From positions 19,791 through 83,790 of the forward strand of contig QCBM01000005.1 of assembly GCA_003281605.1 (NCBI GenBank): a stretch of DNA of 64,000 nucleotides. The letters are read 5' to 3'. This document shows, one piece after another, positions 40,797-57,390 of the stretch. The notes beneath the pieces were generated by a model, which did no database searches, had not been told where the DNA came from, and was given only the letters and a program-made list of their open reading frames with translations. The translations under genes and the position numbers were made by a program. The DNA is from Prochlorococcus sp. AG-347-I06 (GTDB lineage: Bacteria; Cyanobacteriota; Cyanobacteriia; PCC-6307; Cyanobiaceae). Every line of letters starts with the position of its first letter. The first letter of the stretch is position 1.

Positions 40797-40878
40797 GGGT
40801 CGGTGCCCGAGTGGTTAAAGGGGGCGGACTGTAAATCCGCTGGCTCTGCCTACGTTGGTTCAAATCCAACCCGGCCCA
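40797..40878 (+). tRNA. tRNA-Tyr(GTA)
   Basis: GGGTCGG/CCGGCCC acceptor stem, CTGTAAA anticodon loop, long variable arm, GGTTCAAATCC T arm. Confidence 0.98.
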
Positions 40879-40888
40879 CTTTAAAATT

Positions 40889-40960
<72 letters not shown>

Positions 40961-41088
40961 TGGCCAAAAGCATTGCTACAATAGAAGTTATAAGAAATTA
41001 GTTAAAATTGATTATTAGCCAGATATATCTAGATATGTCGACAATATAGCAATTCTGCACTAATATTTGCACTAATTACACTTTTAAA

Positions 41089-42438: not shown

Positions 42439-42775
42439 TTTTAACTGACGTAGGAAGGAATATATGTAGACATATCAATAAGCAGTATTAATATATATTT
42501 AACGCTTAGCGTTCTTCAAAAAAGTGGCTGAGAATTGACCAAATGGTTATGACAGCTTAAGAGCTTATGTTGGTAAAGAGTAGTTGATGTCAAATATCAT
42601 CACCCCAACAGGCAGCCACATAATTGCCAGCCCTAGTACCACCTACGACAAATTTTGGGGTCTTGAAGCATAGTTAAAAAATACTATCGGTTGCTCAGCC
42701 AAGGTACTACAGACTGAGAGACTTATTCATTATTGAGAACGAGTTTGAAGGTCGGGAAAAATATTTTTTAATCTT

Positions 42776-43024
42776 ATGAATAATCAAACTTGGCTGCCCA
42801 CAAGGGAAGCAAAAATAGTTCTAGGTTGTAGTGCCCAATTCCTAAAGAAAAATCGCGATATTTACGGTGGTTTTCTTAGAGAGGAAGACCATTATATTTT
42901 TGGCGCTAGTGTAAACTCTTCCATTCTTTGGAACGTAAAAGAAATTTTAAAAGAGTTTCACTATAGAGGACGGCTTATCAGGAAGGGTCAAGACTTAATA
43001 AGTGAATTACAAAAGGAGGTTTAA
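42776..43024 (+). CDS. Excisionase-like/HTH DNA-binding protein
   Basis: WLPTREAKIVLGCSAQFL winged-helix-like start; lies between integrase and helicase. Confidence 0.65.
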   Translation: MNNQTWLPTREAKIVLGCSAQFLKKNRDIYGGFLREEDHYIFGASVNSSILWNVKEILKEFHYRGRLIRKGQDLISELQKEV

Positions 43025-43026
43025 AA

Positions 43027-44121
43027 ATGAACCCCTCAGATTACACAGGTTGCGACATTGATAAAATACAGCTAATTGATAATGAAAATTATCAAAATCG
43101 TTATCACAATAAATCTTTAAAAGACTACTCCTCGGATGTAGGAAAAGGTCCTGAAAATATAGCTGATTTATTAAAAACAAAAAGTTCAAAAGAATGGATT
43201 GTCGATTCCTTTGGAGCTGGAGGTTCATGCGTTTTACTTGCGGGCGAAACAGGATCTGGTAAAACCTCATTTATTTATCAAATGGCTTATGCAATATCTA
43301 CGGGGAATATTTTTTTGGAAGAAATCACTACCCAAAAAAATAAAGTACTAGTTGTTCAATCAGATGAAAGTAAAAATAATGCTCTTGATAAGTTGGAGTT
43401 AATGGATATAGATGGACCAAACTCCAACCTTTATTTCTATTTCGCAGAAGATGGATGGGACAGACTAAATATTAAAAATCTGAAAGAGGTAGTTTTAAAT
43501 CATTCTTTTAAAGTTGTATTGCTTGATAGCGTTACAACATTATTAACCAATAATGGTCGTTCAATGCGAGATCCTGAATTTGCAACGCCTCTTTATGAAT
43601 TAAATAAATTAGCAAGTGAATTAAATATCCTTATTATTTGTACAGCGCATTTAAGAAAGCCAGAGGGAATTAGACATGAAGTATCTATACATGATGTAAT
43701 TGGAGCAATTACACAGAGTGGAGCTGTTAGCGATATTTGGGGTATTTGGGTACCAACAAAACAAAGCCATGAAAATCACTTTATTTTGAAATGCTTAGGG
43801 AAAAGAAACTGTAGAAAAGGAATTATTTGGAATTTAAAAGGCGATGAAGAAGATTTCAGTTTCACTTTAGAAAGTGTAGGAGAAGGAGAATTATTACCCT
43901 CCAAGAATCAAGAATTAAGTTTCTTGATTCTTGATTTCTTACATACAAAAAATGAATTTAAAACGATAAGAGAAATTGCTAATGCGACTTCGTTTAATCA
44001 GGAACATACTAGACGAATTTGTAAAAAACTTTTTCTAGAAAAAGAAATTTCTAGGGATAAAGATATCTCTAAAGGAGGAAGACCAGCCTGGAGGTACGGA
44101 CCTAAGACTTTTCCTACTTAA
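43027..44121 (+). CDS. RepA/DnaB-like AAA ATPase (replicative helicase-like) with C-terminal wHTH
   Basis: GETGSGKT Walker A, VLLDS Walker B, AHLRK; C-terminal TIREIANAT...RRICKKL...GGRP. Confidence 0.8.
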   Translation: MNPSDYTGCDIDKIQLIDNENYQNRYHNKSLKDYSSDVGKGPENIADLLKTKSSKEWIVDSFGAGGSCVLLAGETGSGKTSFIYQMAYAISTGNIFLEEITTQKNKVLVVQSDESKNNALDKLELMDIDGPNSNLYFYFAEDGWDRLNIKNLKEVVLNHSFKVVLLDSVTTLLTNNGRSMRDPEFATPLYELNKLASELNILIICTAHLRKPEGIRHEVSIHDVIGAITQSGAVSDIWGIWVPTKQSHENHFILKCLGKRNCRKGIIWNLKGDEEDFSFTLESVGEGELLPSKNQELSFLILDFLHTKNEFKTIREIANATSFNQEHTRRICKKLFLEKEISRDKDISKGGRPAWRYGPKTFPT

Positions 44122-44160
44122 GGCCTGTAGTTTAGAAATTTAATTTCTTTAGACAAAAAA

Positions 44161-44184
44161 AAGCCATTTGATATCAAATGGCTT
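44161..44184. terminator. Perfect 24-bp palindrome between convergent genes
   Basis: AAGCCATTTGAT|ATCAAATGGCTT; adjacent A run gives a T tail on the minus strand. Confidence 0.75.
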
Positions 44185-44215
44185 AAGTCCTTTTAATTTT
44201 GAGAGTAGGGTTCAT

Positions 44216-46117
44216 TTATAGAACCCTCCTCAATTCGTCTTCCCCACATTTTTCTATGAAACTTTTTAACTTAGCTGGTGGCCATCCAGTTTTAGCTGTC
44301 AAGATTTTGAATTTTTCTAATTCTTTAATCTCTATTCTTTGGCCATCATAAATATGATGGGTTTCTTTACCACTAGCTGAATGCGTTTCAGCAGATATTG
44401 AGATTGAATCTCTATCACCACCTTCAGAAGGAGGACGATTTCGATCTTCATGCTCAACTACAGATTCGAATTGTGCTTTCTCATCCATTAATGATTCAGC
44501 AAACAATTTGATGTTTACGCTCTCTGGAGATAAGTCTCCATTATCATCAGGGACCAAATCAATTCCATCTTCATACTGGTAGAAGTATGCTGTCTGCATA
44601 TCATGAGATAAGTCAGATTCAGTTCTTAGTATTCTTCCAAGTATTTGAGTCCATCTTAATGATGCCTGAATTGTGGTTAAATAAACTCCAACTCTAAGGA
44701 ACTTAATATCTACTCCTTCAGAAATTTTGCCTACGGCAATAATCCATTTAGGTCTATTCTTAGTTCTATTCGTCTTGAAGTTTTTAATAGCGCGTTTGTC
44801 GTCACCAGTTTCTGAATGAACAACAACAGCTTCTTCATTGGTCCACTTTTTTAAGGCCTTCGCAACTGCATCAGCATGGGGAATACTGTCACAAATAATT
44901 AATCCTCCAGCCCATTCATGCGATCTTCTACATTCATCTAATTGATCGTTTGCAGCGATCAAAATATTACGAACATATTCTGTACCATGTGGATGCCTTT
45001 CAGTACCGCATTCAATACAAGCCTTTCTTCTCAACCTTTTAATGATTTTTCTAAGCCTTCTATTGTCAACGATCCTCTCACCTGTAACTGAATCAAACTG
45101 ACATTCGTAAATTTGATCAATATTATCGGTAAGTTTGTGTTTAACTTTTTGTGCTGAAACAAGTTGGCCATCACGCTTTTCTTTAATAGTAAAATCAACA
45201 ACTCCGTTCCATTGTTTAATAACAACATCTCGGACAACTTGATCACCTAAAGCGCAATACCTCGTATTCCATTTCGTTATTCCATATCCATAGGAATATG
45301 CATGGGGTGGACTTAATTCAATTTGGTTCCTGTAATATCTCACCCAAGGTAATTTTTGACGATCACTTCTAAATGGAGTTCCACTTGTCATTAATCGAGC
45401 AACCGTATTACCAAAAGCTAAAGAGAAACATTCTCCCCATCTTTTTTGTTCACCTAAGTGATGACATTCATCAGCAATAATTAATGTCTTATACCTCTTA
45501 CAAACATCTCGTAAGATTTCAGCATTAACCATATTTCCAGAATCATTGTTCCGATAACCTATTTTTGCGTAAGTAGTAACGATACCGTCAAAACCTTCTG
45601 CGCAAGAATTTTTCTTATTAAGATGCAGACCAATTGTTCTAGCATCATCTTCCATTTGATCTCTTAAAAAATCACTTGGAACAGTAACAATAATTTTTTC
45701 TATAAAACCTTGCTCCTTTAAATATGCACCTATAAGTAGAGAGGCAAGAGTTTTTCCTGATCCTGGGAATGCGTGAAGAATAAAAGCATTTATATCTTCT
45801 TTTGGCTTGTTTATCTGCTGAACCATAGACATATAGCATCTTTGAAGAAATTCTTCTTGCCATTTCCTAAGTTCAAAGCCAGGGGGAAGCCAATTACTTA
45901 CATCTATTTTTAAAGATGCTGATTTTTTAAGATTGCATGATCGGCATAGAGCTTGACCATTACTTAATTCAGTTTTTCCTCCTAATGAATAAGGAGTTAT
46001 GTGATCAGCGTGAAAGTCATCGAGACTTATTTCACATGAGCAATTTTGGCATTTACCTTTTGCTCTTAAAAACAATTCTTGTCTTTGTGATTGAGTAAAG
46101 AATCTGTTGTCAGTCAT
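44216..46117 (-). CDS. HNH endonuclease fused to SF2 (ResIII/DExH-like) helicase
   Basis: CQNC...HADHITP...SNGQALCRSCN; AFPGSGKT, DECHH, SGTPFRSD, EGVDI and QILGRILR. Confidence 0.9.
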   Translation of the reverse strand: MTDNRFFTQSQRQELFLRAKGKCQNCSCEISLDDFHADHITPYSLGGKTELSNGQALCRSCNLKKSASLKIDVSNWLPPGFELRKWQEEFLQRCYMSMVQQINKPKEDINAFILHAFPGSGKTLASLLIGAYLKEQGFIEKIIVTVPSDFLRDQMEDDARTIGLHLNKKNSCAEGFDGIVTTYAKIGYRNNDSGNMVNAEILRDVCKRYKTLIIADECHHLGEQKRWGECFSLAFGNTVARLMTSGTPFRSDRQKLPWVRYYRNQIELSPPHAYSYGYGITKWNTRYCALGDQVVRDVVIKQWNGVVDFTIKEKRDGQLVSAQKVKHKLTDNIDQIYECQFDSVTGERIVDNRRLRKIIKRLRRKACIECGTERHPHGTEYVRNILIAANDQLDECRRSHEWAGGLIICDSIPHADAVAKALKKWTNEEAVVVHSETGDDKRAIKNFKTNRTKNRPKWIIAVGKISEGVDIKFLRVGVYLTTIQASLRWTQILGRILRTESDLSHDMQTAYFYQYEDGIDLVPDDNGDLSPESVNIKLFAESLMDEKAQFESVVEHEDRNRPPSEGGDRDSISISAETHSASGKETHHIYDGQRIEIKELEKFKILTAKTGWPPAKLKSFIEKCGEDELRRVL

Positions 46118-47063
46118 TTTTAAATACCTCCAAAATTTGGTTTGCTAATTGAATTGCGGAATTTTTTCCGATTCTTTTGATAATTTTTTTTGCGACTACT
46201 GATGCGTTACCTCTTACACCTACATAGCTGTAAGTTCCATACGCTTTAGCAAGTCCTGCTTCTCTTTCTGCTGCTGCTACCGAGGGAATTAAACCTCTTA
46301 AAAGTCTGTCCAAAGTATTAGATACTCTTTCAGTAGAGGTCCCTTTGCTTTTGCATAAAGAGGGGTTATTTTTTAATTTTGTTAACCTGCTTATCAAGCG
46401 AGTTTTACTATCACTTGGAAGTGAGTCTTTATCTTTTAAATAACTACTCGATGCTTCAAAGAGATTTGTTTGTACTGGGGCATCTCCTGCTGGTGATGTA
46501 TCTAAGGAATTTAATAATTCCTTTAAACGTTCATGTGCTTTAGACCATTCAGGATCAACTTGTTTCATTAAAGAGAGAAGTGTTTCCCATCCGATCATTT
46601 TGGATTTACCAAATCTAAAATCATCACTTAGCTGCTCCAAAGTATTAGGTTCTTCAGTAGCAATAAGTTCTATTAGATAAGTCACTGCCTCACTTGCATC
46701 TTTAGCTGAAGGTTGATGACCAGTTAAGGTTCTCATCAATTCATCAGGTTCAACGCCAAGACAATCTCTTATCCACTCAACAGCTCTTTTGTATTCCCTT
46801 ACTTCTCTCCTACTTTTGATAGAAGGCATAAAGGCAACTTTTTCCCAAGCTTTTTGCTTGAAACAATCAACTAAGGCAGTTGAAAGTGCTGCTGAATTTT
46901 TAGTAGTCCAGTGCTCTTTGAGTATTTGCGTACTCAGAGTTTTAATTTGTGTATCTCTTGGTAGAGAGGACAACCAGCTTTGAGCTTCAATGGTTGCAGT
47001 TTTTTCGTGTAATGTGTTCACTTTGTTCCTGGGGCTAGGTTTAGATGTAAGCCTTAAGCTCAC
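46110..47063 (-). CDS. Hypothetical protein, translationally coupled to the HNH-helicase
   Basis: 8-bp overlap with the helicase start; GTG at 47063 preceded by GGGAGAG (ORF track starts at TTG 47087). Confidence 0.8.
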   Translation of the reverse strand: MSLRLTSKPSPRNKVNTLHEKTATIEAQSWLSSLPRDTQIKTLSTQILKEHWTTKNSAALSTALVDCFKQKAWEKVAFMPSIKSRREVREYKRAVEWIRDCLGVEPDELMRTLTGHQPSAKDASEAVTYLIELIATEEPNTLEQLSDDFRFGKSKMIGWETLLSLMKQVDPEWSKAHERLKELLNSLDTSPAGDAPVQTNLFEASSSYLKDKDSLPSDSKTRLISRLTKLKNNPSLCKSKGTSTERVSNTLDRLLRGLIPSVAAAEREAGLAKAYGTYSYVGVRGNASVVAKKIIKRIGKNSAIQLANQILEVFKND

Positions 47064-47102
47064 AATCAAATACTCTCCCAAAAGCAACTAAAATATATTT
47101 TT

Positions 47103-47189: not shown

Positions 47190-49316
47190 ATGAATGAGAG
47201 ACTAAGATGTCATATGTTTATTGGAATACCTGCAAGCGGGAAATCAACTCTTGCAAATGAACTGGCGCCATTGATAAATGCAGAGATTTTATCAACAGAC
47301 AAAATTAGAGAAGAACTTTATAAAGACGAAACGATTCAAGGAAATTGGAACGAAATTGAATCTTTACTTCATGAAAGACTTAAAGAATACATAAGACAAA
47401 ATAAGCCAGTTATCCTAGATGCTACTTTTGCAATGAGACCTTGGCGTCTAACAATTACTCAAAATCTTTTATTTGATAAAGAAATTGAATGGATTGGCTG
47501 GTGGTTTAAAACACCATTAGAAATTTGCCTTGAATGGAATCAATTAAGAGAGAGGAAAGTCGATGATCCAGTAATTAAAAGATTTGCGGCAGCCCTCTCA
47601 AATAAAATTTTCTCGCCAGATTTATCTGAAGGTTTTGCAACTTTAATAAATATTGATCCATCATCAACAGAAGATATTACAAAAGAAATTAAAAGCAGAC
47701 TTTCGAATTTAGATAGAAATATTACCCAAAGAAAAAATAAAGATTCAATAAAAGAATTGCACGGATACTCAAAATTATTAGATTTTGAGAGACTTCTATA
47801 TCTAATGCAACTGTTAATTAGATTTCCAGATTTAAGTGCGGATGATAAAAAAACAAAATTAGAAATGGAACAAATATGTAACCCAATACCTCAAGGATCT
47901 ATTGAAAACAAAGCCTCTAAATTTTTAAGTACTTTGCATGGCAGTTGTTATTCTGATATTGAAAAATTACATGATGATCTCAAGTGGCTTGATAAGCAGG
48001 GATTTATTAACCATAAAGAAGCAACAGGTAAGCTTGAGCCGCCTCCTGAAGACAAAAATTTTAATAGAGAACTTGGAGGGCTATCAAGATATTCAGAAAA
48101 AGATGCATTTATTAGAGTCATGTCTTTAATCAGATATATCTTACATAACCCTTTTGATGACAAAAGAATTAAAGATGAAAACAATAAGAAGGGTATTAGT
48201 TTGCACGAACACTATATTTCTAAATTAGAAAATATTTATTTCAAAGAGGAAAGAGATACTCTTAGAAAAGATATTGAAAAAATTCTAACTCCATACGGAT
48301 TTAGGGATAAAAATGATAATACAAGGCATGGTTATGTATTAGGAACTGCAGTTTTATCAAGGAACAGACTTGAAGATATTTTTCAGATTATTGATCAAGC
48401 AAAAAATAAATTAAATGATCCAACCATTTCAAGTGTGCACACTAAATTAAAAGAAAGGTTTAAGTGGGCTGGATTTAATTTAGACAATTATCCAGTCAGA
48501 TCATTTGCAAACAAATCTGTTATTAATCCAACTTTTACAAAAAAAGATTCCTTAGCAGTTGATACAAATACTGAAGAACTTGAAAATGCTATAAAGAATG
48601 GTTTTTTAATTGAAATTGAGTTTTTTAGAAGTGCAGGTAAATTTAACGAAGAAGAAAAAGAAGGTTCTCAAAACAAATTGGTTTGGCCAATCCAACTACT
48701 TTTTAATAATATTGGTTGGTATTTGGCCTATGAAGAAAAAACCTTTAGGGATGAACCTGGTCTTTTAAAAACTGAAAGAATTGATCGTATTGCTCTTAGG
48801 AGAATTGATAACTCAAAAATAAGAAATAGAAAAGATAGAGACAAAGCACTTAGAAAAGTTCAAAAATTGGTAGAAATTTCGGGGAGTATTTATTTTGGTG
48901 AAACTGTTGAAAAACAAATTGCAGTACTAAAAAGTAGTGAAGAAAATATTAAAAAATTACTTATTACAGTTCGCTTCAGAACAACTGAAAAAATATTTCG
49001 CTTTCTTCGAGAAGAACTTCAAAGATATCCCTTAAATCAAATGCGTTTAGCAAAGGGTTCAAAGAAAGTATTTTATGAAAATTGGGAAGAACCAGAAAGT
49101 GGGAACTTTGTACTAGAAATGATTAAAGATGATCCTTACCCATATCCAGTTGAGATAGATTTACCTTCATGGACAGTAAAAAATGATAACGATTTTAGAA
49201 GATGGCTATTAGGTTTTAGAGAGGGAATAATTATTGAAAGTCCTACAGAATTTGTAGAAGAGATTAAGTCAAACATATCAAAACTAGGAGAAATATACAA
49301 AACCAAAAATAATTAA
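47190..49316 (+). CDS. AAA_33/PNK-like P-loop kinase fused to HTH-WYL-WCX domains
   Basis: GIPASGKST, STDKIR and ILDAT; WPIQLLFNNIGWYLAY; FRRWLLGF...IESP. Confidence 0.85.
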   Translation: MNERLRCHMFIGIPASGKSTLANELAPLINAEILSTDKIREELYKDETIQGNWNEIESLLHERLKEYIRQNKPVILDATFAMRPWRLTITQNLLFDKEIEWIGWWFKTPLEICLEWNQLRERKVDDPVIKRFAAALSNKIFSPDLSEGFATLINIDPSSTEDITKEIKSRLSNLDRNITQRKNKDSIKELHGYSKLLDFERLLYLMQLLIRFPDLSADDKKTKLEMEQICNPIPQGSIENKASKFLSTLHGSCYSDIEKLHDDLKWLDKQGFINHKEATGKLEPPPEDKNFNRELGGLSRYSEKDAFIRVMSLIRYILHNPFDDKRIKDENNKKGISLHEHYISKLENIYFKEERDTLRKDIEKILTPYGFRDKNDNTRHGYVLGTAVLSRNRLEDIFQIIDQAKNKLNDPTISSVHTKLKERFKWAGFNLDNYPVRSFANKSVINPTFTKKDSLAVDTNTEELENAIKNGFLIEIEFFRSAGKFNEEEKEGSQNKLVWPIQLLFNNIGWYLAYEEKTFRDEPGLLKTERIDRIALRRIDNSKIRNRKDRDKALRKVQKLVEISGSIYFGETVEKQIAVLKSSEENIKKLLITVRFRTTEKIFRFLREELQRYPLNQMRLAKGSKKVFYENWEEPESGNFVLEMIKDDPYPYPVEIDLPSWTVKNDNDFRRWLLGFREGIIIESPTEFVEEIKSNISKLGEIYKTKNN

Positions 49317-49371: not shown

Positions 49372-49866
49372 ATGTCTCACATTAATCCAATGACATCCAA
49401 CAACAAATTCAACAGCTCTGAAAATGATCACCCTGAAAATCAGGGAGACTTTCAAAGCAGCAATCCAAATGTTCCTAATTCTTATTTTGAATTACTTGCC
49501 ATGCAAGGCGGAGTTAATACAAAAACAAAGAACATTAACGAAATTCAGGATCTACCTGAATTAATTCCAGTTATAGAAAACTGTCTTAACTTAATTGCTC
49601 GTACTAAGGAGAAAAGTATTCGCAAACTAAATGAGAATATGCGACTTCTTGATGAGTTAAAAATTATCGAATCTAAGCGGTTTCAAAAAATGAGGCATAT
49701 TAATTCTCATTTAATTGATGAAGAAATTCATGAGCTTATGAAGGACCAACATTATCTTGATAAATTAATTCAACTACTTGATATGAGTGATTGCAATCTG
49801 CATCGATTCATACCCCAATTAATTGATATTGAAAAAGTACTTAAAAACCTAAACGCGGAGATTTAA
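49372..49866 (+). CDS. Hypothetical protein (orphan A); start may be ATG 49390
   Basis: Helical C-terminus; N-terminal motif shared with the next gene. Confidence 0.75.
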   Translation: MSHINPMTSNNKFNSSENDHPENQGDFQSSNPNVPNSYFELLAMQGGVNTKTKNINEIQDLPELIPVIENCLNLIARTKEKSIRKLNENMRLLDELKIIESKRFQKMRHINSHLIDEEIHELMKDQHYLDKLIQLLDMSDCNLHRFIPQLIDIEKVLKNLNAEI

Positions 49867-49870
49867 CCTA

Positions 49871-50329
49871 ATGACAAACAACAAAAACAATGATGAGATC
49901 AAAAGCACTCATCCCGAAGCCTTTGAAGATATAAAGGTTAGCGATTCTGTTCCTAATTCTTATAAAGAACTTTTAGAACTTCAAAAACCAAAGATTGAAT
50001 CTATTGATGATCTTGTAAGTGAAGGCAAAATTGATCCTGAAAAAGCTAAATTTTTAAAGCTATGTACAGAAACTTTTCAATCAGTTCTTGATCTTTTAAA
50101 TAAATTAAAATCTAGTCCTGGTCAAGATATCTTTATTGCAACTATGCTTATTCAAAGAGTTTACTTATTTAATAAAACTTACTTAGAAAAAGCGCAAAAA
50201 AATAAAGAGTTATCAGAACATGAGTTTAATAACTTATCGGAAAGTAATGCCAAATTAAAATGCATATTTCATATGCTCGTTCCGGGAGATGGAGAACTTG
50301 GCGAAAATGGACTCAATTTTACTGTTTAA
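49871..50329 (+). CDS. Hypothetical protein (orphan B)
   Basis: 4 nt after orphan A; shares HPE...VPNSYxELL. Confidence 0.75.
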   Translation: MTNNKNNDEIKSTHPEAFEDIKVSDSVPNSYKELLELQKPKIESIDDLVSEGKIDPEKAKFLKLCTETFQSVLDLLNKLKSSPGQDIFIATMLIQRVYLFNKTYLEKAQKNKELSEHEFNNLSESNAKLKCIFHMLVPGDGELGENGLNFTV

Positions 50330-50341
50330 GGAGGGAAGTAA

Positions 50342-51388
50342 ATGACGAACTCAAAATTAAACAATCCGGGTATTATTTATTTCGTGCAAGAAAAAGATCT
50401 TCTCGGATACAGCACTCCTAATTACGTAAAAATTGGCTTAGTTAAAAGCAATGAGATTGGGCGATCAGGAGAGGATAGAAAGGATGAACACCAAACAGGA
50501 AATCCTAGACCTCTCTACATAGCCCACTCAATTACAACTAAAGCAAGTGTTTCAAAATTAGAAAGTTTAATACACCAAAAACTTTCGCTTCACAGGCACA
50601 GAGGTGAGTGGTTTGTAAAACCAAATGGAGAAATAGATCCCTTCATTAAAGAATCAAATCTTATAAATGAACAACTTCAAGATCAATTAAAAAATGATCT
50701 TAAAATTGAAGAACTAAATTCTCAAGTTAGTTCAGGTAAAACCACAAAACCCTCTTCTGAAGCTCAAGACATTCACAATGAATTGCTTAGAGTTATTAAA
50801 GAAAAAAAAGAAATCGAAACTCAAAAGAAAATTATTGAACTAAAGCTAAGACTATTATCTGGTAGTTCAAATAATTCTATTGAGGGAGTATTTCAATGGA
50901 TTTTAAAAAGAGAATCACAAAGATTTGATGCCAAGAATTTTGAAAAAGAAAATCCTGAATTATTTGAAAAATATGCAAAAGAATCTCAAAGCTCAATCTT
51001 TAGAATCCAAAAAATAAATTCCAATATCAATAAAGAATTAATAGAAGAATTAAATAGTAAAGTTAGCCATTTAGATGCCTCTGAAAAGAGCACAAAAATT
51101 GCAAGAAGCAATGAAGCAGAGGATCTTCACAGAGAGTGGCTTACTTTGCTTTCACAACAACAACCTCTTGAACTTAAGAAAGAAAATCTTGTAAATCAAC
51201 TTAAAATATTATGTGATAATAATTCAGGCCTTGAGAATATATGCTCTTGGAAAAGAGAACCAATTAAAAAAATTAAGAAAAGTGATCTATCAGAATTAGA
51301 TAAAGATATAGTTAATAAATATCTTGTAAAGGTAAAATCAACTTCCTCCTTTATGTTAAATACCTTTAGAGCATATAAATTTAAGTAA
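50342..51388 (+). CDS. GIY-YIG superfamily (T5orf172/MUG113-like) nuclease with coiled-coil tail
   Basis: IIYFVQE...VKIG...QTGNP...LESLIHQKL...RGEWF; SD GAGGGAAG. Confidence 0.85.
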   Translation: MTNSKLNNPGIIYFVQEKDLLGYSTPNYVKIGLVKSNEIGRSGEDRKDEHQTGNPRPLYIAHSITTKASVSKLESLIHQKLSLHRHRGEWFVKPNGEIDPFIKESNLINEQLQDQLKNDLKIEELNSQVSSGKTTKPSSEAQDIHNELLRVIKEKKEIETQKKIIELKLRLLSGSSNNSIEGVFQWILKRESQRFDAKNFEKENPELFEKYAKESQSSIFRIQKINSNINKELIEELNSKVSHLDASEKSTKIARSNEAEDLHREWLTLLSQQQPLELKKENLVNQLKILCDNNSGLENICSWKREPIKKIKKSDLSELDKDIVNKYLVKVKSTSSFMLNTFRAYKFK

Positions 51389-51401: not shown

Positions 51402-54380
51402 ATGGCAAAGGAAAATTTTCCATATCAACTTTTCATTGTTGGAGCAGAATATTCCAGAAATGATATTAATCAAAGACTTGTCAATTCAAAAGTAAGTCAG
51501 CAGAGTGGAGTTTCAAGTTTTGCGGATTCATTAATTCTTTTTGCAACATTAGAAAAAGAAGGAAGACCTGAAGAAATACAGTATAAAGATTTTTTTAAAT
51601 TTAAAAACAAAATATTTAGTGAATTAAAGAAAAAAAAAGGAACTTCTGTTTTACCTGTAGAAGGCTATTTCCCAATATTTGAAAAGGGAGAAATTAAATT
51701 TTTCTGGGAAAGTCAAAATCCTTCAGGAAACTTTGGAACCCCAGAAAAACCATTGCTTTCCAAATTAATTAAAGGAGAGCTTAAAGGTTATTTATTTGCT
51801 CGAATTGAGGAGAAAACAAAAGGTAAAAGTAATCGATTTTTATACTGTGGTTCGATAGAAGCAGAAAGTTATGACGACAAAGCAAATGGAGAAAGACCTT
51901 TTGGAGTTAAATTTTCTTGTAATGATATAGGGCCAAAGCATGTAAAAAATGATTTAAAGATTTTACTGGAATGGCGTCCAAAAGATATTTCGACAATTAC
52001 TAAAGCAGAAGAACTTGCTTCTTCTTGTTTGGCAAATGAAAAAGTAAAACTTAAGGAAATAGAGAATGAGCTTTTTTGGAGTGGTTTTGAAACTCCAGAA
52101 TTGGCAACAAAGATATTACTAGAAAAATTTAATAAATACTCACTAGAACCTTCACCATATATATTTACGAAACTTGTCTGTAGACACTTTTCTGGTATCA
52201 ATAAATCCTCTTTTTTTACGCCACAAGTCTTAGAAAATTTTATTTGCAACTTTCTAAAAAATTTAAAAATAAAATCTGTTCTTGATCCATCAATGATAAA
52301 TGGAAGTACTTTATATAAAATTTCAAAAGAATTAAAACCTCAAGAGATTTATGGGTATGAAATAAATAAAGACCTCTTTAGACTATCTGAAGTTTTTAAT
52401 AAAAATGCCACGCTTAAAAATGAATATTTCCCAATTAATCAAGACTTAGAAAAAAGATTTGATTTAATAGTTTCTTTTCCTCCGATGATGATGAGGCATC
52501 CCTCAGTAAATAAAGAGATAATAATAAATGATAAAAAACTTGCATTTAATCTTCACAGAGAGACTGAAATCATATTTTCTTCTTTAAGAAATTTATCTGA
52601 TAATGGTTTAGCATTATTTATTGTTTCTCCAGGCTTTTTATTAAAAACTAGAAGTAGAAATATTTTTGAATTTATAAAAGATATTGGATTCAGTTTAGAA
52701 GGAATTTTTTATATCCCTGCTGGGACTTTCAAACCTTTTTCTGGAATTGAAGGCAGATTGGTAATAATTAAGAAAAAAATTCAATCTAAATTTATATTTG
52801 AAGGACAATTATCTTTTAATAAAGACAGAGATCAAAAATTAATAAATAATTTTTATGAATCTAAAGCTGATGAAGATCCTGAATTAGGTTTTTTAAGAGA
52901 ATTTGAAAGTAAAACTGATTTAAGAGAAGCTATCTTCCTTGAAAAGTTATCGCTAATTAATAAAAATATTGATATTGAGGTTAAACATTTAGAAGAAATA
53001 TCTGAAAGTATTTTCTATGCGACTTTAGAGAAAATAATAGAACATCAAAATTCTATATTTATTTTTCTCAATGGAAATAATAATGTATATGAATATGTAG
53101 CTGACATTGATACCAAAAAATTTGATTCTGGAATTAGGAATCAATCTATAGCGCAAGTAGTTATAAACCCTAAAAGAATTAATAAAAAAGTTTTAGTAAA
53201 AATCCTACAAAGTAAAAGAGGTAAACTTGCTTTTCAAGCTTTAACATCTTCTTTTGCTTCTCCTGGAAGAACAAGAATTTCTTTAAGTTCAATAGGTAAA
53301 TTACTTTTATGTATACCTGATAAAAAAGAGCAAGATCAATTAGAAATAATCGATCAAAAATTATTCGATATTAAATTTAAATTAAGTAACTTCGAAAATA
53401 ATCTTTGGGAAAAAATAGATCAACCCAAAGAATCTATTAAAGAATTTAATAAGATTATTAATCAAAAATATCAAAAGGAAACTAAAGATGATTTAGATAT
53501 AAGAATACTTCCCTTTCCATTGGCAAGTATTCTTCAAACAGTAAAAAGTTTTAATGGTATTCCTATAAAAATGTCATTACATATTGAATATTTCTTTGAG
53601 GCTCTTAGTCAATTTTTGGCAATTTATATAATGAGTGGTTTTTATATTAACGAAGAAGAATTTAATTCAATATGGACAGAAGTCTCAAATTTTCTAAAAG
53701 AAAAAAATCATAATATTGGCTCAAGTACTTTTGGTACCTGGAATATAATTTTTAACCTACTAACGAAAAAAATAAACCAAGATATAAAGGAGGAAGAAAG
53801 TATGAAAGAAGTTTGGCTCAGTAGATTAGCAATAGAAAGCGAAGAATTTTTAAATGTATTAACCGGTAAAAAATTACTTGGGATTTTAATGAGGGCAAAC
53901 AGATTTAGAAATATGTGGAGAGGACATTCAGGAGCAATTGGAGATGATAATGCAAAAGAGAGATACAACACATATAACGAAATGGTAAAAGAAGTTTTAA
54001 ACTTATTTAGAAATTTTTGGATTGAGTCGCCTCTTGTGATTCCTGGAGAAAGTACATATAAAGACGGAAAGTTTGATTATTTTTGCCAATCTGCAATGGG
54101 AGTTACAATGCCCTTACCAAGAAATAAATACAGTTTAAAACAACCTCTTGAAGATGGAATGATGCATATAGTTTCTACTGTAAGTGGGAAATCATGTAAA
54201 TTACTCCCATTAATTAAATTTGGAGAAAGCCCAAGCAAAGTTGATAATGCATGTTATTTCTATAACAGGCGTGATAATGACCAATCACAAAGATGGATTT
54301 CTTATCACAATGAAAATAAACCTGAGAGACCATTTAGTGATCCTGAAGTAAATGCATTACTAGATAAATTAAGTAACTAA
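51402..54380 (+). CDS. DUF3427-like + degenerate N6-adenine methyltransferase + TRD-like + HEPN-like fusion
   Basis: YSRNDI...FFWESQ...FLYCG; FFTP, VLDPSMINGS, YGYEIN, DLIVSFPPM; LLLCIPDKKEQ; RNMWRGH. Confidence 0.7.
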   Translation: MAKENFPYQLFIVGAEYSRNDINQRLVNSKVSQQSGVSSFADSLILFATLEKEGRPEEIQYKDFFKFKNKIFSELKKKKGTSVLPVEGYFPIFEKGEIKFFWESQNPSGNFGTPEKPLLSKLIKGELKGYLFARIEEKTKGKSNRFLYCGSIEAESYDDKANGERPFGVKFSCNDIGPKHVKNDLKILLEWRPKDISTITKAEELASSCLANEKVKLKEIENELFWSGFETPELATKILLEKFNKYSLEPSPYIFTKLVCRHFSGINKSSFFTPQVLENFICNFLKNLKIKSVLDPSMINGSTLYKISKELKPQEIYGYEINKDLFRLSEVFNKNATLKNEYFPINQDLEKRFDLIVSFPPMMMRHPSVNKEIIINDKKLAFNLHRETEIIFSSLRNLSDNGLALFIVSPGFLLKTRSRNIFEFIKDIGFSLEGIFYIPAGTFKPFSGIEGRLVIIKKKIQSKFIFEGQLSFNKDRDQKLINNFYESKADEDPELGFLREFESKTDLREAIFLEKLSLINKNIDIEVKHLEEISESIFYATLEKIIEHQNSIFIFLNGNNNVYEYVADIDTKKFDSGIRNQSIAQVVINPKRINKKVLVKILQSKRGKLAFQALTSSFASPGRTRISLSSIGKLLLCIPDKKEQDQLEIIDQKLFDIKFKLSNFENNLWEKIDQPKESIKEFNKIINQKYQKETKDDLDIRILPFPLASILQTVKSFNGIPIKMSLHIEYFFEALSQFLAIYIMSGFYINEEEFNSIWTEVSNFLKEKNHNIGSSTFGTWNIIFNLLTKKINQDIKEEESMKEVWLSRLAIESEEFLNVLTGKKLLGILMRANRFRNMWRGHSGAIGDDNAKERYNTYNEMVKEVLNLFRNFWIESPLVIPGESTYKDGKFDYFCQSAMGVTMPLPRNKYSLKQPLEDGMMHIVSTVSGKSCKLLPLIKFGESPSKVDNACYFYNRRDNDQSQRWISYHNENKPERPFSDPEVNALLDKLSN

Positions 54381-54432: not shown

Positions 54433-57390
54433 CTACAGTGATGAATTTATATTTAGGATTAGAAGTCTCCTGGCAAGTGAATGATTTGTATAGTATTTAT
54501 AAACATCAGCATTCAATTTTATTTTATTAGAAAACCTAAAATAATTTGGTAATTTCCCTTTTGTACTTTCATTCCTACTAGCATAAAAGTCATATGCAGA
54601 ACTTGTTATGCTGTAAGTCTTATTATCATTATCTTCAAAAATAGCTGATTTTTTATCCAATCCTGCATAATTTTTAAATTTTAAAATTACATTTTTCCTC
54701 TCATACCATCTTGTATTTAATATTTCTAGTTTATTGTAGTTGGATATTTGTTTAAGCTCTTTAAGCAAAAAGATAATATCTTCAAAAAATTCTTTAGTTG
54801 TTGTCACTTTAATAAGCTGTTCATTCAGCTTTGAACCACTATATTTTTTTTGTTGATAATAATAACTTTCATTATATGCCTGTGAAAAATAATTTTTATT
54901 AAGCAGGAGAACCATTTTACAAAAATCTTCTTTGAAAAATAGATTAACTGTTTTACTTAAAGATTTTCTTGTAAACGCATTAACAGAAGAAATTAACCAC
55001 CACATAAGACTATTTCTGTTTGATGAGTAATAAGGTGAATTTCCATCAATATCTAGATGTTCATAACATTTCAAAAGTAGATCACTAATATTGTCAAAAT
55101 ATTCTTGGTTAATGTTTTCACCTACCATTTCATTCATAAGGTGCCGTGCATGTCGGTTATATGCATCTGCTATAAGTGTCAAAAACAAAGATTTACTTGT
55201 ATCTTTTCTTTCTGACCAATCTTCAGTGACTTTATAGACATCCTCAAATTTATTTTGCCTGATCAATAGTCTTGCAAATGCAGTCATAAATTTAGAGTAT
55301 GGTAATGAGTCAGGAAGAGGGGTATCTAGCGAATCAAAAAATCTGAATCCATATTCACAAGCTCTACTATCTTTAAGTGCATCAAATCTATAAAAAAGCG
55401 TTAATAAAGCATTAGGATCATTTCCATCAGCTGCAAGCTGTAAGTGCTTTATACATTGAAGTTGATCATTAAATTCTTGATAAATCAAACCTATAAGACG
55501 ATAAACAGCAGGTGGGACTGATTGAGCTCTATTTATATCTTTAAAATCCTCAAGATCTTTCAATGCATCTCTTAGTTTTGCAAATGCAACTTCTTTTAAA
55601 TCGTTAGAAACAAGGTCTTCATCTTTAATTTTATAAAAATGTCCTAATGCACCAATTGCCTCATTACAAATCACCCTACAAGTATCATCAACCTGTGTTT
55701 CAGGTCTTAGAAAGCTGAATTTCATCTGATTTGACCAACTATTATTTTCAGAATTTAGTATCGAAATATTCTTATTAATTTGATCATCCTTATAAATATT
55801 CAACCTAAATCTAAGATCTTCATTTAAAGGATATATGCTTAAATAAGATCTAAAGTTATCATTCAATTTTATACAATCCATAGAAGATGTACCCCTGAAG
55901 GCCAATCCCAAGTCCTCAATTTCTGCAATGGATTCAGTAACACTGTCAATATCAACTGAAAGTCTCTTATTAATATCTATTTTTCTAGATTCTCCTAAAA
56001 CAAAAAGTACCTCAAGACAGTCTTTACTTACATTAGATAATGAACCTACAAGTTTTGTAAATGAGAATGAAATAATACTATCTGCACCACATTGAACTGA
56101 TTCAATTAAGCTTGTATTATTTTTCTTTTGGTATCCAATTGCATTTTTTATTGCAAGTGGGTTACAAAATAATTTATTAGAGTAGTCTGAAGCTTCTTCG
56201 TATGAAATTTTTTTTCCTAATTTATCTAAATAAACTTTTTGGAATAATTTTGCAGCACTTTTAAGTTCTAAAGGTCCTAGTGAAATAATACTGCTAGATT
56301 CTCTAATTCTTATTCTTGAAGTTATTATAATTTTCCAATCTCTTGGTAACTCATTTTCAAATTCAGAAAACACCTTATAAATATCACTGGACAGTGTCTC
56401 AAGATTATCTACCCATAATAAAAATCTGTAGTTTCCAAAGGTATTTAAGAAGTCTTCCCAAAGTGAATTAATATCTTTTCCATCTTCAAAGTTAAATACT
56501 TCTTGAAAAATATTATTTTCGCTAAATTCTGTATTAGCGAATTTATAACCTTGCAATAATTGCTCTTTAATTCCCTCCATTGTTAAATTAATAATATCTT
56601 TTCTGACTACACCCTCCTCTAAATATTCCTCTTTCAGTGATGAGTATAAAATACAATCAATTTCTTTAGAATCTTCATCAGAAAACTTTAATTCATTTAA
56701 AACAGACAATGTTAAAGCTGTTTTACCTGTTCCTCCAGCACCAAAAATACTTACACTTGGTTTTCTTGGATTTAATAAATAATTTTTTATTTCCTCTGAA
56801 AGTTTTTCTCTCCCGATAATTTCATCGTAATCAGGCATTGGTAAATTATTCGGAATTTCAGTTAATTTACTCTCTTCTATTTCAACTAGATCAAGGTTCC
56901 CTTTTTTTGCTGCATAATATCTTTCAATTACATTTATAAAACCCAGTTGTTTAATTACAGGATCAAGTGCTAAAGCTTGTACTCTTAGCCAATGAACTGG
57001 GTGATATTCATTCCCAGGGTGAGCGAAAGATTGAGATCTTGTTTTATAAATTTGTAAAACATTTATCAATTGATCTAACCTTTCATAGTATTTTTGTTTC
57101 GAACTTCCCTGTGAAACTTGTTTCGCTAAAGATGGCAATTGAGAAAGATTTGATTTTCTGATTAACTCTTCTTTATTTCTTGGGTTCCTTCTATATGTTT
57201 CTGAGAAATATCTTTTACATTTTAGGCCTGCTCCAGATTCAGTATCAACCGAATCTATATTAGAAATTATTTTATCTACCAAACTTTTCTCTAGAGAACC
57301 TAGAACCATTTGTATTCTAGTTGCATCTAGGAATTGATCATCTTGATCAAACGAGTAGATCTCTTCATTTTCTACTGCGCTTAAAGTCAC
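54433..57390 (-). CDS. NLR-like STAND protein: HEPN-like N-terminus, NB-ARC NTPase, helical C-terminus
   Basis: RSQSFAH (Rx5H); PNNLP...IIGRE; GAGGTGKT; LWVDNLET; IITSR; CNPLAI; TPR-like helices. Confidence 0.8.
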   Translation of the reverse strand: MTLSAVENEEIYSFDQDDQFLDATRIQMVLGSLEKSLVDKIISNIDSVDTESGAGLKCKRYFSETYRRNPRNKEELIRKSNLSQLPSLAKQVSQGSSKQKYYERLDQLINVLQIYKTRSQSFAHPGNEYHPVHWLRVQALALDPVIKQLGFINVIERYYAAKKGNLDLVEIEESKLTEIPNNLPMPDYDEIIGREKLSEEIKNYLLNPRKPSVSIFGAGGTGKTALTLSVLNELKFSDEDSKEIDCILYSSLKEEYLEEGVVRKDIINLTMEGIKEQLLQGYKFANTEFSENNIFQEVFNFEDGKDINSLWEDFLNTFGNYRFLLWVDNLETLSSDIYKVFSEFENELPRDWKIIITSRIRIRESSSIISLGPLELKSAAKLFQKVYLDKLGKKISYEEASDYSNKLFCNPLAIKNAIGYQKKNNTSLIESVQCGADSIISFSFTKLVGSLSNVSKDCLEVLFVLGESRKIDINKRLSVDIDSVTESIAEIEDLGLAFRGTSSMDCIKLNDNFRSYLSIYPLNEDLRFRLNIYKDDQINKNISILNSENNSWSNQMKFSFLRPETQVDDTCRVICNEAIGALGHFYKIKDEDLVSNDLKEVAFAKLRDALKDLEDFKDINRAQSVPPAVYRLIGLIYQEFNDQLQCIKHLQLAADGNDPNALLTLFYRFDALKDSRACEYGFRFFDSLDTPLPDSLPYSKFMTAFARLLIRQNKFEDVYKVTEDWSERKDTSKSLFLTLIADAYNRHARHLMNEMVGENINQEYFDNISDLLLKCYEHLDIDGNSPYYSSNRNSLMWWLISSVNAFTRKSLSKTVNLFFKEDFCKMVLLLNKNYFSQAYNESYYYQQKKYSGSKLNEQLIKVTTTKEFFEDIIFLLKELKQISNYNKLEILNTRWYERKNVILKFKNYAGLDKKSAIFEDNDNKTYSITSSAYDFYASRNESTKGKLPNYFRFSNKIKLNADVYKYYTNHSLARRLLILNINSSL

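What the first reader, a model, noticed from the sequence alone, without database searches (positions are those of the whole stretch)
51402..54380. Modified-base reader + pseudo-methyltransferase + TRD + HEPN-like domain in one protein
Seen: an HsdM-like fold with both key motifs altered. The SAM motif DPxCGSG reads DPSMINGS and the catalytic NPP(Y/F) reads FPPM. It is followed by an HsdS-like segment and an RNMWRGH (Rx5H) motif, with an N-terminal DUF3427-like domain. Known: DUF3427 is a PUA-superfamily domain found in modification-dependent restriction enzymes; Rx4-6H marks HEPN RNases. Inference: a decoy RM-like sensor that detects modified phage DNA or anti-restriction DNA mimics and triggers an abortive RNase.
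Basis: partly seen in the sequence, partly recalled or inferred. Interest (0 to 1): 0.82.

Follow-up and report, generated by a model that had tools for sequence, protein, structure and literature searches.

The report
Dead methylase sensor fused to RNase-like module
A Prochlorococcus gene encodes a protein made of a modified-DNA reader, a catalytically dead copy of the DNA-recognition parts of a Type I restriction enzyme, and a conserved RNase-like tail; its relatives form a large unnamed family that in other bacteria sits inside Type I restriction operons and is labelled "N-6 DNA methylase".

Summary
ORF 51402-54380 (+, 992 aa) has four parts. The N-terminus is DUF3427-like. Next comes an HsdM-like fold with both key motifs altered (DPSMINGS, FPPM). 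An HsdS-type recognition domain follows. The last ~290 residues carry an invariant R-N-x4-H.

It is not a one-off. The dead-methylase + recognition-domain + tail core is a large unnamed family of ~770-aa proteins (447 clusters at E<1e-30). Only 1 of 145 members keeps [ND]PP[YFW], against 19 of 21 true HsdM genes next to them. Of 26 family loci with good flanks, 23 lie co-oriented inside hsdM/S/R operons, the slot PrrC occupies. RefSeq calls members "N-6 DNA methylase".

The tail folds confidently (pLDDT 94-95) but matches no solved structure. Support for HEPN is the motif, its position at a helix end, and repeated weak Pfam hits (HEPN_Swt1, Abi_2, Csm6_HEPN).

The Prochlorococcus copy has no Type I genes within 64 kb. 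It gained the DUF3427 head and sits in a conserved cluster with a T5orf172 nuclease-like gene.

Best reading: a restriction-derived sensor fused to an RNase effector for abortive defence. The trigger, the RNase activity and the defence phenotype are untested.

The parts
51402..54380 (+). Whole ORF, 992 aa: DUF3427-like + dead HsdM-like + HsdS-type recognition domain + HEPN-like/beta tail
51402..52016 (+). aa 1-205, DUF3427-like domain (putative modified-DNA reader). Carries a variable 29-aa insert at aa 66-94.
   Evidence: 37% identity, E=5e-46, to the L004 DUF3427+NOV_C protein, which hits PF11907 at E=7e-10. Precomputed PF11907 on P0007/P0008. No direct Pfam hit on the window protein.
52194..52811 (+). 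aa 265-470, HsdM-like Rossmann (N6_Mtase) fold, predicted catalytically dead
   Evidence: Pfam N6_Mtase E=1.2e-8. Family profile against PDB HsdM E=4e-21. Motif statistics.
52284..52307 (+). Motif I remnant DPSMINGS. Canonical form is (D/E)PxxGxG; the first Gly is lost.
52476..52487 (+). Motif IV remnant FPPM. Canonical form is (N/D)PP(Y/F/W).
52812..53486 (+). aa 471-695, single HsdS-type target-recognition domain plus the conserved coiled-coil helix (IPDKKEQDQL...NLWEKI)
   Evidence: PADLOC Specificity_I aa 509-658. Family hits to solved HsdS and to Pfam Methylase_S.
53496..54029 (+). aa 699-876, all-helical domain, HEPN-like candidate. Conserved LPFPLASIL, FFEA, FGTW and RNxWxGH.
   Evidence: AF2 pLDDT 95.4. 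Family conservation. Weak Pfam hits to HEPN_Swt1, Abi_2 and Csm6_HEPN. No Foldseek or PDB match.
53907..53927 (+). RNMWRGH. R836 and H842 are invariant in 145/145 relatives and N837 in 143/145. The motif lies at the end of a helix, with H842 at the helix end or start of the following loop in the two models.
   Evidence: HEPN motif criteria from PMC3710099
54030..54341 (+). aa 877-980, beta-rich domain of unknown fold (conserved G900, ACYFYNR, SYH), followed by a terminal helix
   Evidence: AF2 model pLDDT 94.2. Conservation. No structural match.
50342..51388 (+). Upstream gene, 348 aa, T5orf172/MUG113 domain (GIY-YIG-related nuclease-like). Separated from the ORF by a 13-nt gap. Found adjacent to (L001-L003, L019) or ~2.4 kb downstream of (L010) the target's marine relatives.
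49372..50329 (+). Two small ORFs (164 and 152 aa) that share a PNSY.ELL..Q motif by eye. Conserved in the cluster.
47190..49316 (+). First gene of the co-oriented run: 708 aa, P-loop kinase (AAA_33) + WYL/WCX. Shows the same deep allelic divergence as the target.
54433..57390 (-). Convergent 985-aa STAND-like NTPase (weak AAA_16/NB-ARC). Conserved beside the target in two TARA contigs, absent in L003.

Best explanation
The ORF encodes a single-chain defence protein in which a DNA-reading head is fused to an RNase-type effector tail.

The head has three parts: a DUF3427-like modified-base reader, an HsdM-like fold that has lost its catalytic motif, and one HsdS-type recognition domain with its coiled-coil helix. 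The tail has a helical HEPN-like domain with an invariant R-N-x4-H, followed by a beta domain.

The protein is an N-terminally extended offshoot of a large, unnamed family of ~770-aa proteins. In most bacteria that family is co-transcribed inside Type I hsdM/S/R operons, the genomic slot of the anticodon nuclease PrrC.

Proposed working: the dead M/S head keeps the tail silent. A trigger then engages the head. The trigger could be foreign or modified DNA bound through DUF3427 and the recognition domain, or, for the operon-embedded relatives, a DNA-mimic or other anti-restriction protein docking on the M/S surface. Engagement changes the oligomeric state so that two tails form an active HEPN site. 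RNA is then cut and the infected cell stops growing.

Shown: the architecture, the loss of the catalytic motif, purifying selection on every domain, the family size and the association with Type I operons.

Inferred: RNase activity, the identity of the trigger, dimer-dependent activation and the abortive outcome.
For: - Architecture.
- Dead methylase: [ND]PP[YFW] in 1/145 family members against 19/21 adjacent HsdM; motif II acid in only 25/145.
- Selection: dN/dS 0.26 on the methylase-like domain, 0.27 on the recognition domain, 0.07 on the helical tail, 0.11 on the beta domain.
- Family size: 447 clusters at E<1e-30, matching query positions ~260-990 in one stretch.
- Context: 49/80 loci have co-oriented hsd genes; 23/26 with at least 3 kb on both flanks; 44/80 immediately adjacent. 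Orders are MSXR, MSRX and RMSX, with 4-nt ORF overlaps in L005.
- Tail as catalytic module: R and H invariant in 145/145, N in 143/145, spacing Rx5H (132) or Rx4H (13).
- Motif position: at the end of a helix, with H842 at the helix end or start of the following loop in the two models. PMC3710099 places Rx4-6H there and notes a polar residue after R.
- Pfam sub-threshold hits to HEPN_Swt1 in 3/64, 5/102 and 6/80 members. In the last set, which holds helical-domain fragments only, it is the most frequent family, joined by Abi_2 (E=1.5e-4) and Cas_Csm6_HEPN.
- The tail is a mobile module. It is also fused to Ser/Thr kinases, echoing kinase-KEN in Ire1/RNase L.
- A relative carries a Schlafen AlbA_2 domain in the tail's place.
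- Precedents: PrrC and Ronin, where the HsdMS sensor does not need methylation.
Against: - No fold or sequence match of the tail to any solved HEPN: Foldseek best E=9e-3 at TM 0.16 and E=1.3; PDB profile search gave 0 hits at E<=10.
- All HEPN Pfam hits are below the curated thresholds.
- The window has no hsdM/S/R homolog, so the guardian logic of the wider family may not apply to this copy.
- An adjacent conserved T5orf172 nuclease-like gene could be the real effector.
- Motif I is kept in about 45% of the family, so SAM binding, or even some unusual catalysis, is not excluded for those members.
- No experiment on any member was found in the paper library.
Confidence: 0.5

Rival explanations
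1. Type IV-like, modification-dependent DNA restriction. The target is only the DNA reader (DUF3427 plus dead M/S head), and it recruits or licenses the adjacent T5orf172 nuclease-like protein to cut modified phage DNA. The C-terminal module is an adaptor or regulatory domain, not an RNase.
For: - DUF3427 is the specificity domain of SauUSI and of McaZI-type enzymes that restrict 5hmC phage.
- A DUF3427 + PD-(D/E)xK (NOV_C) protein exists in another Prochlorococcus.
- T5orf172 lies adjacent to (L001-L003, L019) or ~2.4 kb downstream of (L010) the target's marine relatives.
- T5orf172 domains act as nucleases in phage and satellite systems.
Against: - The ~770-aa core family works without DUF3427 and without T5orf172.
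- The tail has enzyme-like invariant residues and the lowest dN/dS in the protein.
- The T5orf172 Pfam hits are weak (E=2e-5 to 2e-6).
Confidence: 0.2
2. The conserved C-terminal module is a sensor or regulatory domain, for example one that binds a phage protein or a nucleotide. The variable N-terminal parts (kinase, dead M/S head) are then the output. Here the head would act by binding DNA, for instance by blocking replication or recruiting HsdR.
For: - The module combines with very different N-termini, including active-looking Ser/Thr kinases.
- No structural match to RNases was found.
- The beta domain has no assigned function.
Against: - An invariant R-N...H at a helix end is typical of HEPN catalysis.
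- Weak but repeated HEPN Pfam hits.
- A Schlafen-type domain sits in the same position in a relative.
- A dead methylase makes a poor effector.
Confidence: 0.15
3. It is what databases call it: an active N-6 DNA methyltransferase, either an orphan or a Type IIG-like M-S fusion with unusual motifs.
For: - Pfam N6_Mtase scores above its cut-off.
- RefSeq labels relatives "N-6 DNA methylase".
- SPP[FW] variants occur in a few relatives, and SPPY/F is used by some N4-cytosine methyltransferases (own knowledge).
Against: - The window protein has FPPM and DPSMINGS.
- The residue before PP varies freely across the family (C, A, S, F, V...), with 1/145 canonical against 19/21 in adjacent HsdM.
- The motif II acid is not conserved.
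- A true HsdM is usually encoded next door.
Confidence: 0.05

Closest known systems
PrrC anticodon nuclease of the EcoprrI Type Ic restriction-modification locus
   Same: It is an accessory gene embedded in an hsdM-hsdS-X-hsdR operon. It has a HEPN-type RNase tail with an Rx4-6H motif. It acts as a second line of defence that fires when restriction is inhibited. The core family here occupies the same slot.
   Different: PrrC's regulatory N-terminus is an ABC-ATPase-like domain, not a dead HsdM/HsdS head. There is no sequence similarity. The Prochlorococcus copy is not in an hsd operon. Activity here is untested.
Ronin (HsdS + HsdM + RonA) decoy immunity, Silas et al. bioRxiv 10.1101/2023.04.06.535777
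   Same: A Type I-derived M/S module without HsdR serves as the sensor of anti-restriction proteins, and methylation activity is dispensable.
   Different: Ronin keeps separate HsdM and HsdS subunits, and its HsdM has an intact NPPF. Its effector is a 61-aa membrane protein. Here the M/S parts are fused, motif IV is lost family-wide, and the candidate effector is a fused HEPN-like module.
Single-chain M-S enzymes and HsdM (gamma-class N6-adenine methyltransferases; e.g. 7eew, EcoR124 M, RM.BsaXI)
   Same: Homologous Rossmann fold followed by an HsdS-type recognition domain. This is the basis of the public label "N-6 DNA methylase".
   Different: The catalytic (N/D)PP(Y/F/W) is absent, and motifs I and II are degraded in the window protein. 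No endonuclease domain is present. The extra ~290-aa tail is unknown to Pfam, NCBIfam and PADLOC.
DUF3427 Type IV restriction enzymes (SauUSI; McaZI-type DUF3427 + PD-(D/E)xK)
   Same: The N-terminal domain is homologous to that of a Prochlorococcus McaZI-type protein. DUF3427 proteins bind 5mC/5hmC DNA and restrict T4gt.
   Different: The partner domains are a dead methylase, a recognition domain and a HEPN-like tail, not PLD/helicase or PD-(D/E)xK.
Abi2 (AbiD/AbiF) / Swt1-like clade of HEPN RNases; kinase-KEN proteins (Ire1, RNase L)
   Same: An R-N-x(3-4)-H type motif at a helix end. Abi2 genes are often in R-M operons. The weak Pfam hits go to HEPN_Swt1 and Abi_2. Relatives of the tail are fused to Ser/Thr kinases.
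   Different: All matches are below curated thresholds. There is no structural match. The tail has an extra conserved beta domain.

Membership tests
N6-adenine DNA methyltransferase (HsdM-like, Pfam N6_Mtase) | Homologous class I SAM-methyltransferase fold | tested here: met
   PF02384 E=1.2e-8, 35.1 bits against a 20.4-bit cut-off, aa 267-461. Family profile against 7eew E=4e-21.
N6-adenine DNA methyltransferase (HsdM-like, Pfam N6_Mtase) | Catalytic motif IV (N/D)PP(Y/F/W) | tested here: not met
   FPPM in the window protein. Canonical in 1/145 relatives against 19/21 adjacent true HsdM.
N6-adenine DNA methyltransferase (HsdM-like, Pfam N6_Mtase) | SAM-binding motif I (D/E)PxxGxG and motif II acidic residue | tested here: not met
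   DPSMINGS: the first Gly is replaced in all 8 close homologs. Motif I is kept in 65/145 of the wider family. The motif II acid is present in the window protein but varies E/G/N/S among close homologs and is kept in only 25/145.
N6-adenine DNA methyltransferase (HsdM-like, Pfam N6_Mtase) | Transfers methyl groups to DNA | not testable with these tools
   Needs an in-vitro assay or a methylome.
HsdS-type target-recognition domain | Sequence homology to Methylase_S / Type I specificity subunits, followed by the conserved helix | tested here: met
   PADLOC Specificity_I E=3e-4, aa 509-658. Family profile hits HsdS of 7vru, 5ybb, 3okg, 1yf2 and EcoKI. Methylase_S matches 15/64 and 10/102 relatives.
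DUF3427 (PF11907) | Match to the Pfam model | tested here: inconclusive
   No direct hit at E<=1 on the window protein. Homology is transitive: 37% identity, E=5e-46, to a protein that hits PF11907 at E=7e-10, model positions 122-244 only. Precomputed hits exist on P0007/P0008.
DUF3427 (PF11907) | Binds modified cytosine in DNA | not testable with these tools
   Known for SauUSI and McaZI-type proteins. Not tested for this clade.
HEPN RNase superfamily | Rx4-6H motif with a polar residue after R, conserved across the family | tested here: met
   RNMWRGH. R and H are in 145/145 and N in 143/145. Spacing is 5 in 132 and 4 in 13. Criterion from PMC3710099.
HEPN RNase superfamily | [quoted passage not shown] | tested here: inconclusive
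   In two AF2 models (pLDDT 94-95) the motif ends a long helix, with H842 at the helix end or start of the following loop. A conserved Glu (FFEA) lies in an earlier helix. The 3D topology could not be inspected.
HEPN RNase superfamily | Detectable profile or structural similarity to known HEPN domains | tested here: inconclusive
   Sub-threshold Pfam hits: HEPN_Swt1 in 3/64, 5/102 and 6/80 (best E=0.004); Abi_2 E=1.5e-4; Csm6_HEPN E=0.024. Foldseek on PDB and BFVD found no hit, and the PDB profile search gave 0 hits.
HEPN RNase superfamily | Metal-independent RNA cleavage | not testable with these tools
   Biochemistry is needed.
PrrC-type restriction guardian | Gene embedded in a Type I hsd operon | tested here: not met
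   Met for the core family (23/26 well-flanked loci). Not met for this locus: no hsd homolog in the 64-kb window.
PrrC-type restriction guardian | N-terminal ABC-ATPase-like regulatory domain | tested here: not met
   No ATPase domain was found.
Ronin | Separate hsdS and hsdM genes plus the small membrane toxin ronA | tested here: not met
   The protein is a fused chain. The neighbours are T5orf172, two 150-160-aa proteins, a kinase-WYL protein and a STAND-like protein.

The most novel reading that the evidence does not exclude
A widespread, so far unrecognised class of Type I restriction "guardians". These would be catalytically dead HsdM/HsdS decoy heads fused to a HEPN-type RNase module, mis-annotated as N-6 DNA methylases. 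They would sense anti-restriction proteins, or failure of the cognate restriction complex, and trigger abortive infection. In Prochlorococcus the module would have been uncoupled from restriction and re-armed with a DUF3427 modified-DNA reader.
Probability: 0.3. Interest if true: 0.85.

Novelty: new variant of a known kind. Interest (0 to 1): 0.7.

Why it matters
If right, a very common extra gene in Type I restriction operons is an infection sensor fused to an effector, not a methylase. It is present as hundreds of 50%-identity clusters and currently carries the label "N-6 DNA methylase". That would extend the PrrC and Ronin logic of guarding or mimicking restriction complexes to a new and far more widespread architecture. 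It would define a new ~290-aa effector module that also pairs with Ser/Thr kinases. It would give Prochlorococcus, a host with few recognised defence systems, a candidate abortive-infection gene carried on a variable island. It also warns against inferring methylomes from "N-6 DNA methylase" annotations.

Tried and rejected
- **Direct PDB sequence search** with the protein: 0 hits.
- **Word-indexed homolog search with the 150-sequence alignment** returned almost only the 8 close homologs. The family was recovered instead through the representative search, the tail-only profile and the metagenome scan.
- **Foldseek** of the tail (303 aa) and of the helical part alone (178 aa) against PDB, and of the tail against BFVD, gave only noise: TM 0.1-0.3, with a HEPN toxin (7ae6) at rank 36 and E=4.8.
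- **PDB profile search** with the tail alignment: 0 hits at E<=10.
- **hhalign** of the helical-domain profile against the N-terminus of the neighbouring STAND-like protein, which has an RSQSFAH motif: no relation, probability 0.2%.
- **Island boundary**: no repeat of the tRNA-Thr 3' end was found in the window.
- **Promoter and terminator scan** of the cluster was uninformative.
- **Phage genomes** contain no copy of the tail module.
- **Literature searches** found no description of this architecture. This library misses most subscription journals, so absence is not proof.
- **Pseudogene or decaying methylase** was considered and rejected: dN/dS is 0.26 on the methylase-like domain.
Full report
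**1. The observation**

The window holds an uninterrupted ORF at 51402..54380 on the + strand, 992 aa. Direct translation of the cited spots gives:
- DPSMINGS at aa 295-302
- FPPM at aa 359-362
- RNMWRGH at aa 836-842

Evidence for each domain:
- **Methylase-like fold.** Pfam N6_Mtase matches aa 267-461 above its curated cut-off (E=1.2e-8).
- **Recognition domain.** PADLOC gives Type I methyltransferase and Type I specificity-subunit models, the latter over aa 509-658.
- **N-terminus.** Pfam does not see DUF3427 in the window protein itself. However, aa 6-223 are 37% identical (E=5e-46) to the N-terminus of a 342-aa Prochlorococcus protein. That protein hits DUF3427 at E=7e-10 and NOV_C, a PD-(D/E)xK nuclease domain, at E=6e-13. 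It is therefore a McaZI-type enzyme as described by Lutz et al. 2019.

**2. Organism and locus**

The closest genomic relatives are Prochlorococcus single-cell assemblies, and the gene is present in many marine metagenomes. The gene is the last of five tightly spaced co-oriented ORFs:
- 708-aa P-loop kinase + WYL
- 164 aa
- 152 aa
- 348-aa T5orf172/MUG113
- the target

A convergent 985-aa STAND-like gene follows. An HNH-helicase, a 325-aa ORF and an AAA_25 gene lie upstream. All of this sits just after tRNA-Tyr and tRNA-Thr. The cluster recurs in L003, and in part in two TARA contigs.

**3. It belongs to a large unnamed family**

A profile of the 8 close homologs was scored against 1.84 billion representatives. 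It found 1800 proteins at E<1e-3 and 447 at E<1e-30. Nearly all are 740-800 aa long and match query positions ~260-990 in a single stretch.

So methylase-like + recognition domain + tail is a conserved core, and the Prochlorococcus clade adds the DUF3427 head. Neither PADLOC nor NCBIfam has a model for the whole protein, and these two libraries and Pfam all lack one for the tail. RefSeq names members "N-6 DNA methylase".

**4. The methylase domain is dead across the family**

In a 145-sequence alignment the residue before the PP of motif IV is C, A, S, F, V and others. The aligned tetrapeptide is canonical [ND]PP[YFW] in 1 of 145 members. As a control, 19 of 21 true HsdM genes encoded next to family members have it.

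The motif II acid is kept in 25/145, and motif I in 65/145. In the window protein and its close homologs the first glycine of motif I is lost.

The family profile still recognises solved HsdM structures (E=4e-21) and HsdS recognition domains.

The domain is not decaying. Between the window and L003 alleles, dN/dS is 0.26 for the methylase-like part and 0.27 for the recognition domain. The fold is therefore kept for a non-catalytic job. The obvious candidates are DNA, SAM or protein binding.

**5. Genomic context of the family**

Eighty metagenomic loci were fetched. Their ORFs were clustered locally and the clusters identified with nine reference HsdM, HsdS and HsdR proteins.

| Measure | Result |
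|---|---|
| Loci with co-oriented hsd genes | 49 of 80 |
| Same, among loci with at least 3 kb on both flanks | 23 of 26 |
| Loci with an hsd gene immediately adjacent | 44 of 80 |

The typical gene orders are M-S-X-R, M-S-R-X and R-M-S-X. In L005 the ORFs overlap by 4 nt on both sides. A Gordonia plasmid shows M-S-R-X, with X split into two "N-6 DNA methylase" CDSs.

This is the genomic niche of PrrC. By contrast, the 64-kb window has no hsdM/S/R homolog.

**6. The tail**

AlphaFold2 with about 100 homologs gives confident models:
- aa 690-992: pLDDT 94.2, pTM 0.93
- aa 699-876: pLDDT 95.4

The models show eight helices, then a beta domain and a terminal helix. The tail is the most conserved part of the family:
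- LPFPLASIL, FFEA, S745, FGxW
- R836 and H842 in 145/145, N837 in 143/145
- G900, ACYFYNR, SYH

It also has the lowest dN/dS in the protein, 0.07-0.11.

*For HEPN.* The motif is Rx5H in 132 members and Rx4H in 13. It sits at the end of a long helix, with H842 at the helix end or the start of the following loop in the two models. Anantharaman et al. 2013 place Rx4-6H there and note a polar residue, mostly N, D or H, after the R. Pfam scans of three sets of relatives return sub-threshold HEPN_Swt1 hits in 3/64, 5/102 and 6/80. The last set holds helical-domain fragments only. There HEPN_Swt1 is the most frequent family, joined by Abi_2 (E=1.5e-4) and Cas_Csm6_HEPN.

*Against HEPN.* Foldseek against PDB and BFVD gives only noise, and a profile search of PDB sequences gives nothing.

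I rate HEPN, in the Abi2/Swt1 neighbourhood, as likely at about 0.7, but not established. The beta domain has no assignment.

**7. The tail is a mobile module**

The tail-only profile finds it in three other settings:
- behind Ser/Thr kinase domains (P0258, P0262, P0268, P0271, P0273, P0287)
- behind other unannotated N-termini
- in recognition-domain + tail forms in complete genomes

The kinase + HEPN-like layout recalls Ire1 and RNase L (own knowledge). One relative, P0177, keeps the back of the methylase fold and the recognition domain but carries a Schlafen AlbA_2 domain where the tail should be. Such swapping is what one expects of an effector position.

**8. Evolution within Prochlorococcus**

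The window and L003 cassettes were compared gene by gene.

| Genes | Amino-acid identity | dS |
|---|---|---|
| Flanking genes | 90-99% | 0.02-0.19 |
| Target | 68% | 0.96 |
| Kinase-WYL gene | 67% | 0.97 |

The target and the kinase-WYL gene are therefore old, divergent alleles sitting in an otherwise young cassette. That pattern suggests recombinational allele exchange and a possible functional pairing of the two genes.

Within the target, divergence concentrates in the linker, the methylase-like domain and the recognition domain. The DUF3427 head and the tail are conserved.

**9. Mechanism**

The best-supported reading is a restriction-derived sensor head fused to an RNase-type effector. 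The wider family guards or monitors Type I restriction complexes in the way PrrC does. Possibly it acts as a decoy for DNA-mimic anti-restriction proteins, as shown for Ronin, where methylation is dispensable.

In Prochlorococcus the same core is uncoupled from restriction and gains a DUF3427 reader. That points to modified DNA as the cue, and the T5orf172 protein is a possible co-effector.

The trigger, the RNase activity and the abortive outcome are all inferred. Section 10 gives the rivals.

**10. Rival readings**

- A Type IV-like DNA restriction complex with T5orf172 as the nuclease.
- The tail as sensor rather than effector.
- A genuine methyltransferase, which is unlikely.

**11. Comparison and novelty**

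The closest known systems are:
- PrrC: same niche and probably the same effector class, but a different regulatory domain.
- Ronin: same sensor logic, but separate active subunits and a membrane toxin.
- HsdM/HsdS and single-chain M-S enzymes: same fold, but catalysis lost here.
- SauUSI and McaZI: same DUF3427 head.
- Abi2/Swt1 HEPN proteins.

The protein fails defining features of each family (see the membership table). It works like a restriction-linked abortive-infection sensor-effector without being a member of any named one. I found no paper that describes the architecture, though the library lacks most subscription journals.

I classify it as a new variant of a known kind, with interest 0.7.

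Noticed in passing
window 47190-49316 (+) and 51402-54380 (+), compared with L003: Between two Prochlorococcus cassettes, the kinase-WYL gene and the target both show dS of about 0.96-0.97 and 67-68% amino-acid identity. The three genes between them and the upstream genes show dS 0.02-0.19 and 90-99% identity. The two divergent genes look like co-varying old alleles in a young cassette.
   Followed up: partly
window 54433-57390 (-): A convergent 985-aa STAND-like NTPase (weak AAA_16/NB-ARC hits) has an RSQSFAH (Rx5H) motif at aa 118. It is 96% identical beside the target's 52%-identical homologs in two TARA contigs and is absent in L003. hhalign finds no relation between its N-terminus and the target's helical domain.
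   Followed up: partly
window 50342-51388 (+); L001, L002, L003, L010, L019: A 348-aa T5orf172/MUG113 (GIY-YIG-related) protein lies adjacent to the target's marine relatives in L001-L003 and L019. In L010 it lies about 2.4 kb downstream of the 790-aa form that lacks DUF3427.
   Followed up: partly
window 49372-49866 and 49871-50329 (+): Two small adjacent ORFs (164 and 152 aa) share a PNSY.ELL..Q motif by eye and may be paralogs. Neither has a Pfam, PADLOC or NCBIfam match.
   Followed up: no
window 40797-47087: tRNA-Tyr and tRNA-Thr are followed by a 449-aa ORF with no Pfam hit, an AAA_25 (RepA/DnaB-like) gene, an HNH + SF2 helicase and a 325-aa ORF. This looks like a tRNA-proximal variable island, possibly a mobile element. 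No repeat of the tRNA-Thr 3' end was found in the window.
   Followed up: partly
L004 9956-10984: Another Prochlorococcus genome encodes a 342-aa DUF3427 + NOV_C (PD-(D/E)xK) protein, a McaZI-type candidate modification-dependent restriction enzyme. Its head is the donor-like relative of the target's N-terminus.
   Followed up: yes
P0258, P0262, P0268, P0271, P0273, P0287; L014 7001-8422: The ~290-aa tail module also occurs behind Ser/Thr protein kinase domains in other bacteria, an Ire1/RNase L-like layout.
   Followed up: partly
P0177 (590 aa, ENA metagenome): This relative keeps the back half of the methylase fold and the recognition domain, but has a Schlafen AlbA_2 domain in place of the tail module.
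   Followed up: partly
L096 6354-8873 (Gordonia sp. JH63 plasmid pJH63-1); L095 7504-10335 (Streptomyces plasmid): Family members in RefSeq are annotated "N-6 DNA methylase". The Gordonia copy follows hsdM-hsdS-hsdR and is split into two CDSs. The Streptomyces copy (943 aa) has EIPY at motif IV and stands near a Pycsar effector gene.
   Followed up: partly
window 51597-51683 (aa 66-94 of the target): A 29-aa lysine-rich insert in the DUF3427-like domain is present in some close homologs and absent in P0004, P0007, P0008 and the L004 protein.
   Followed up: no
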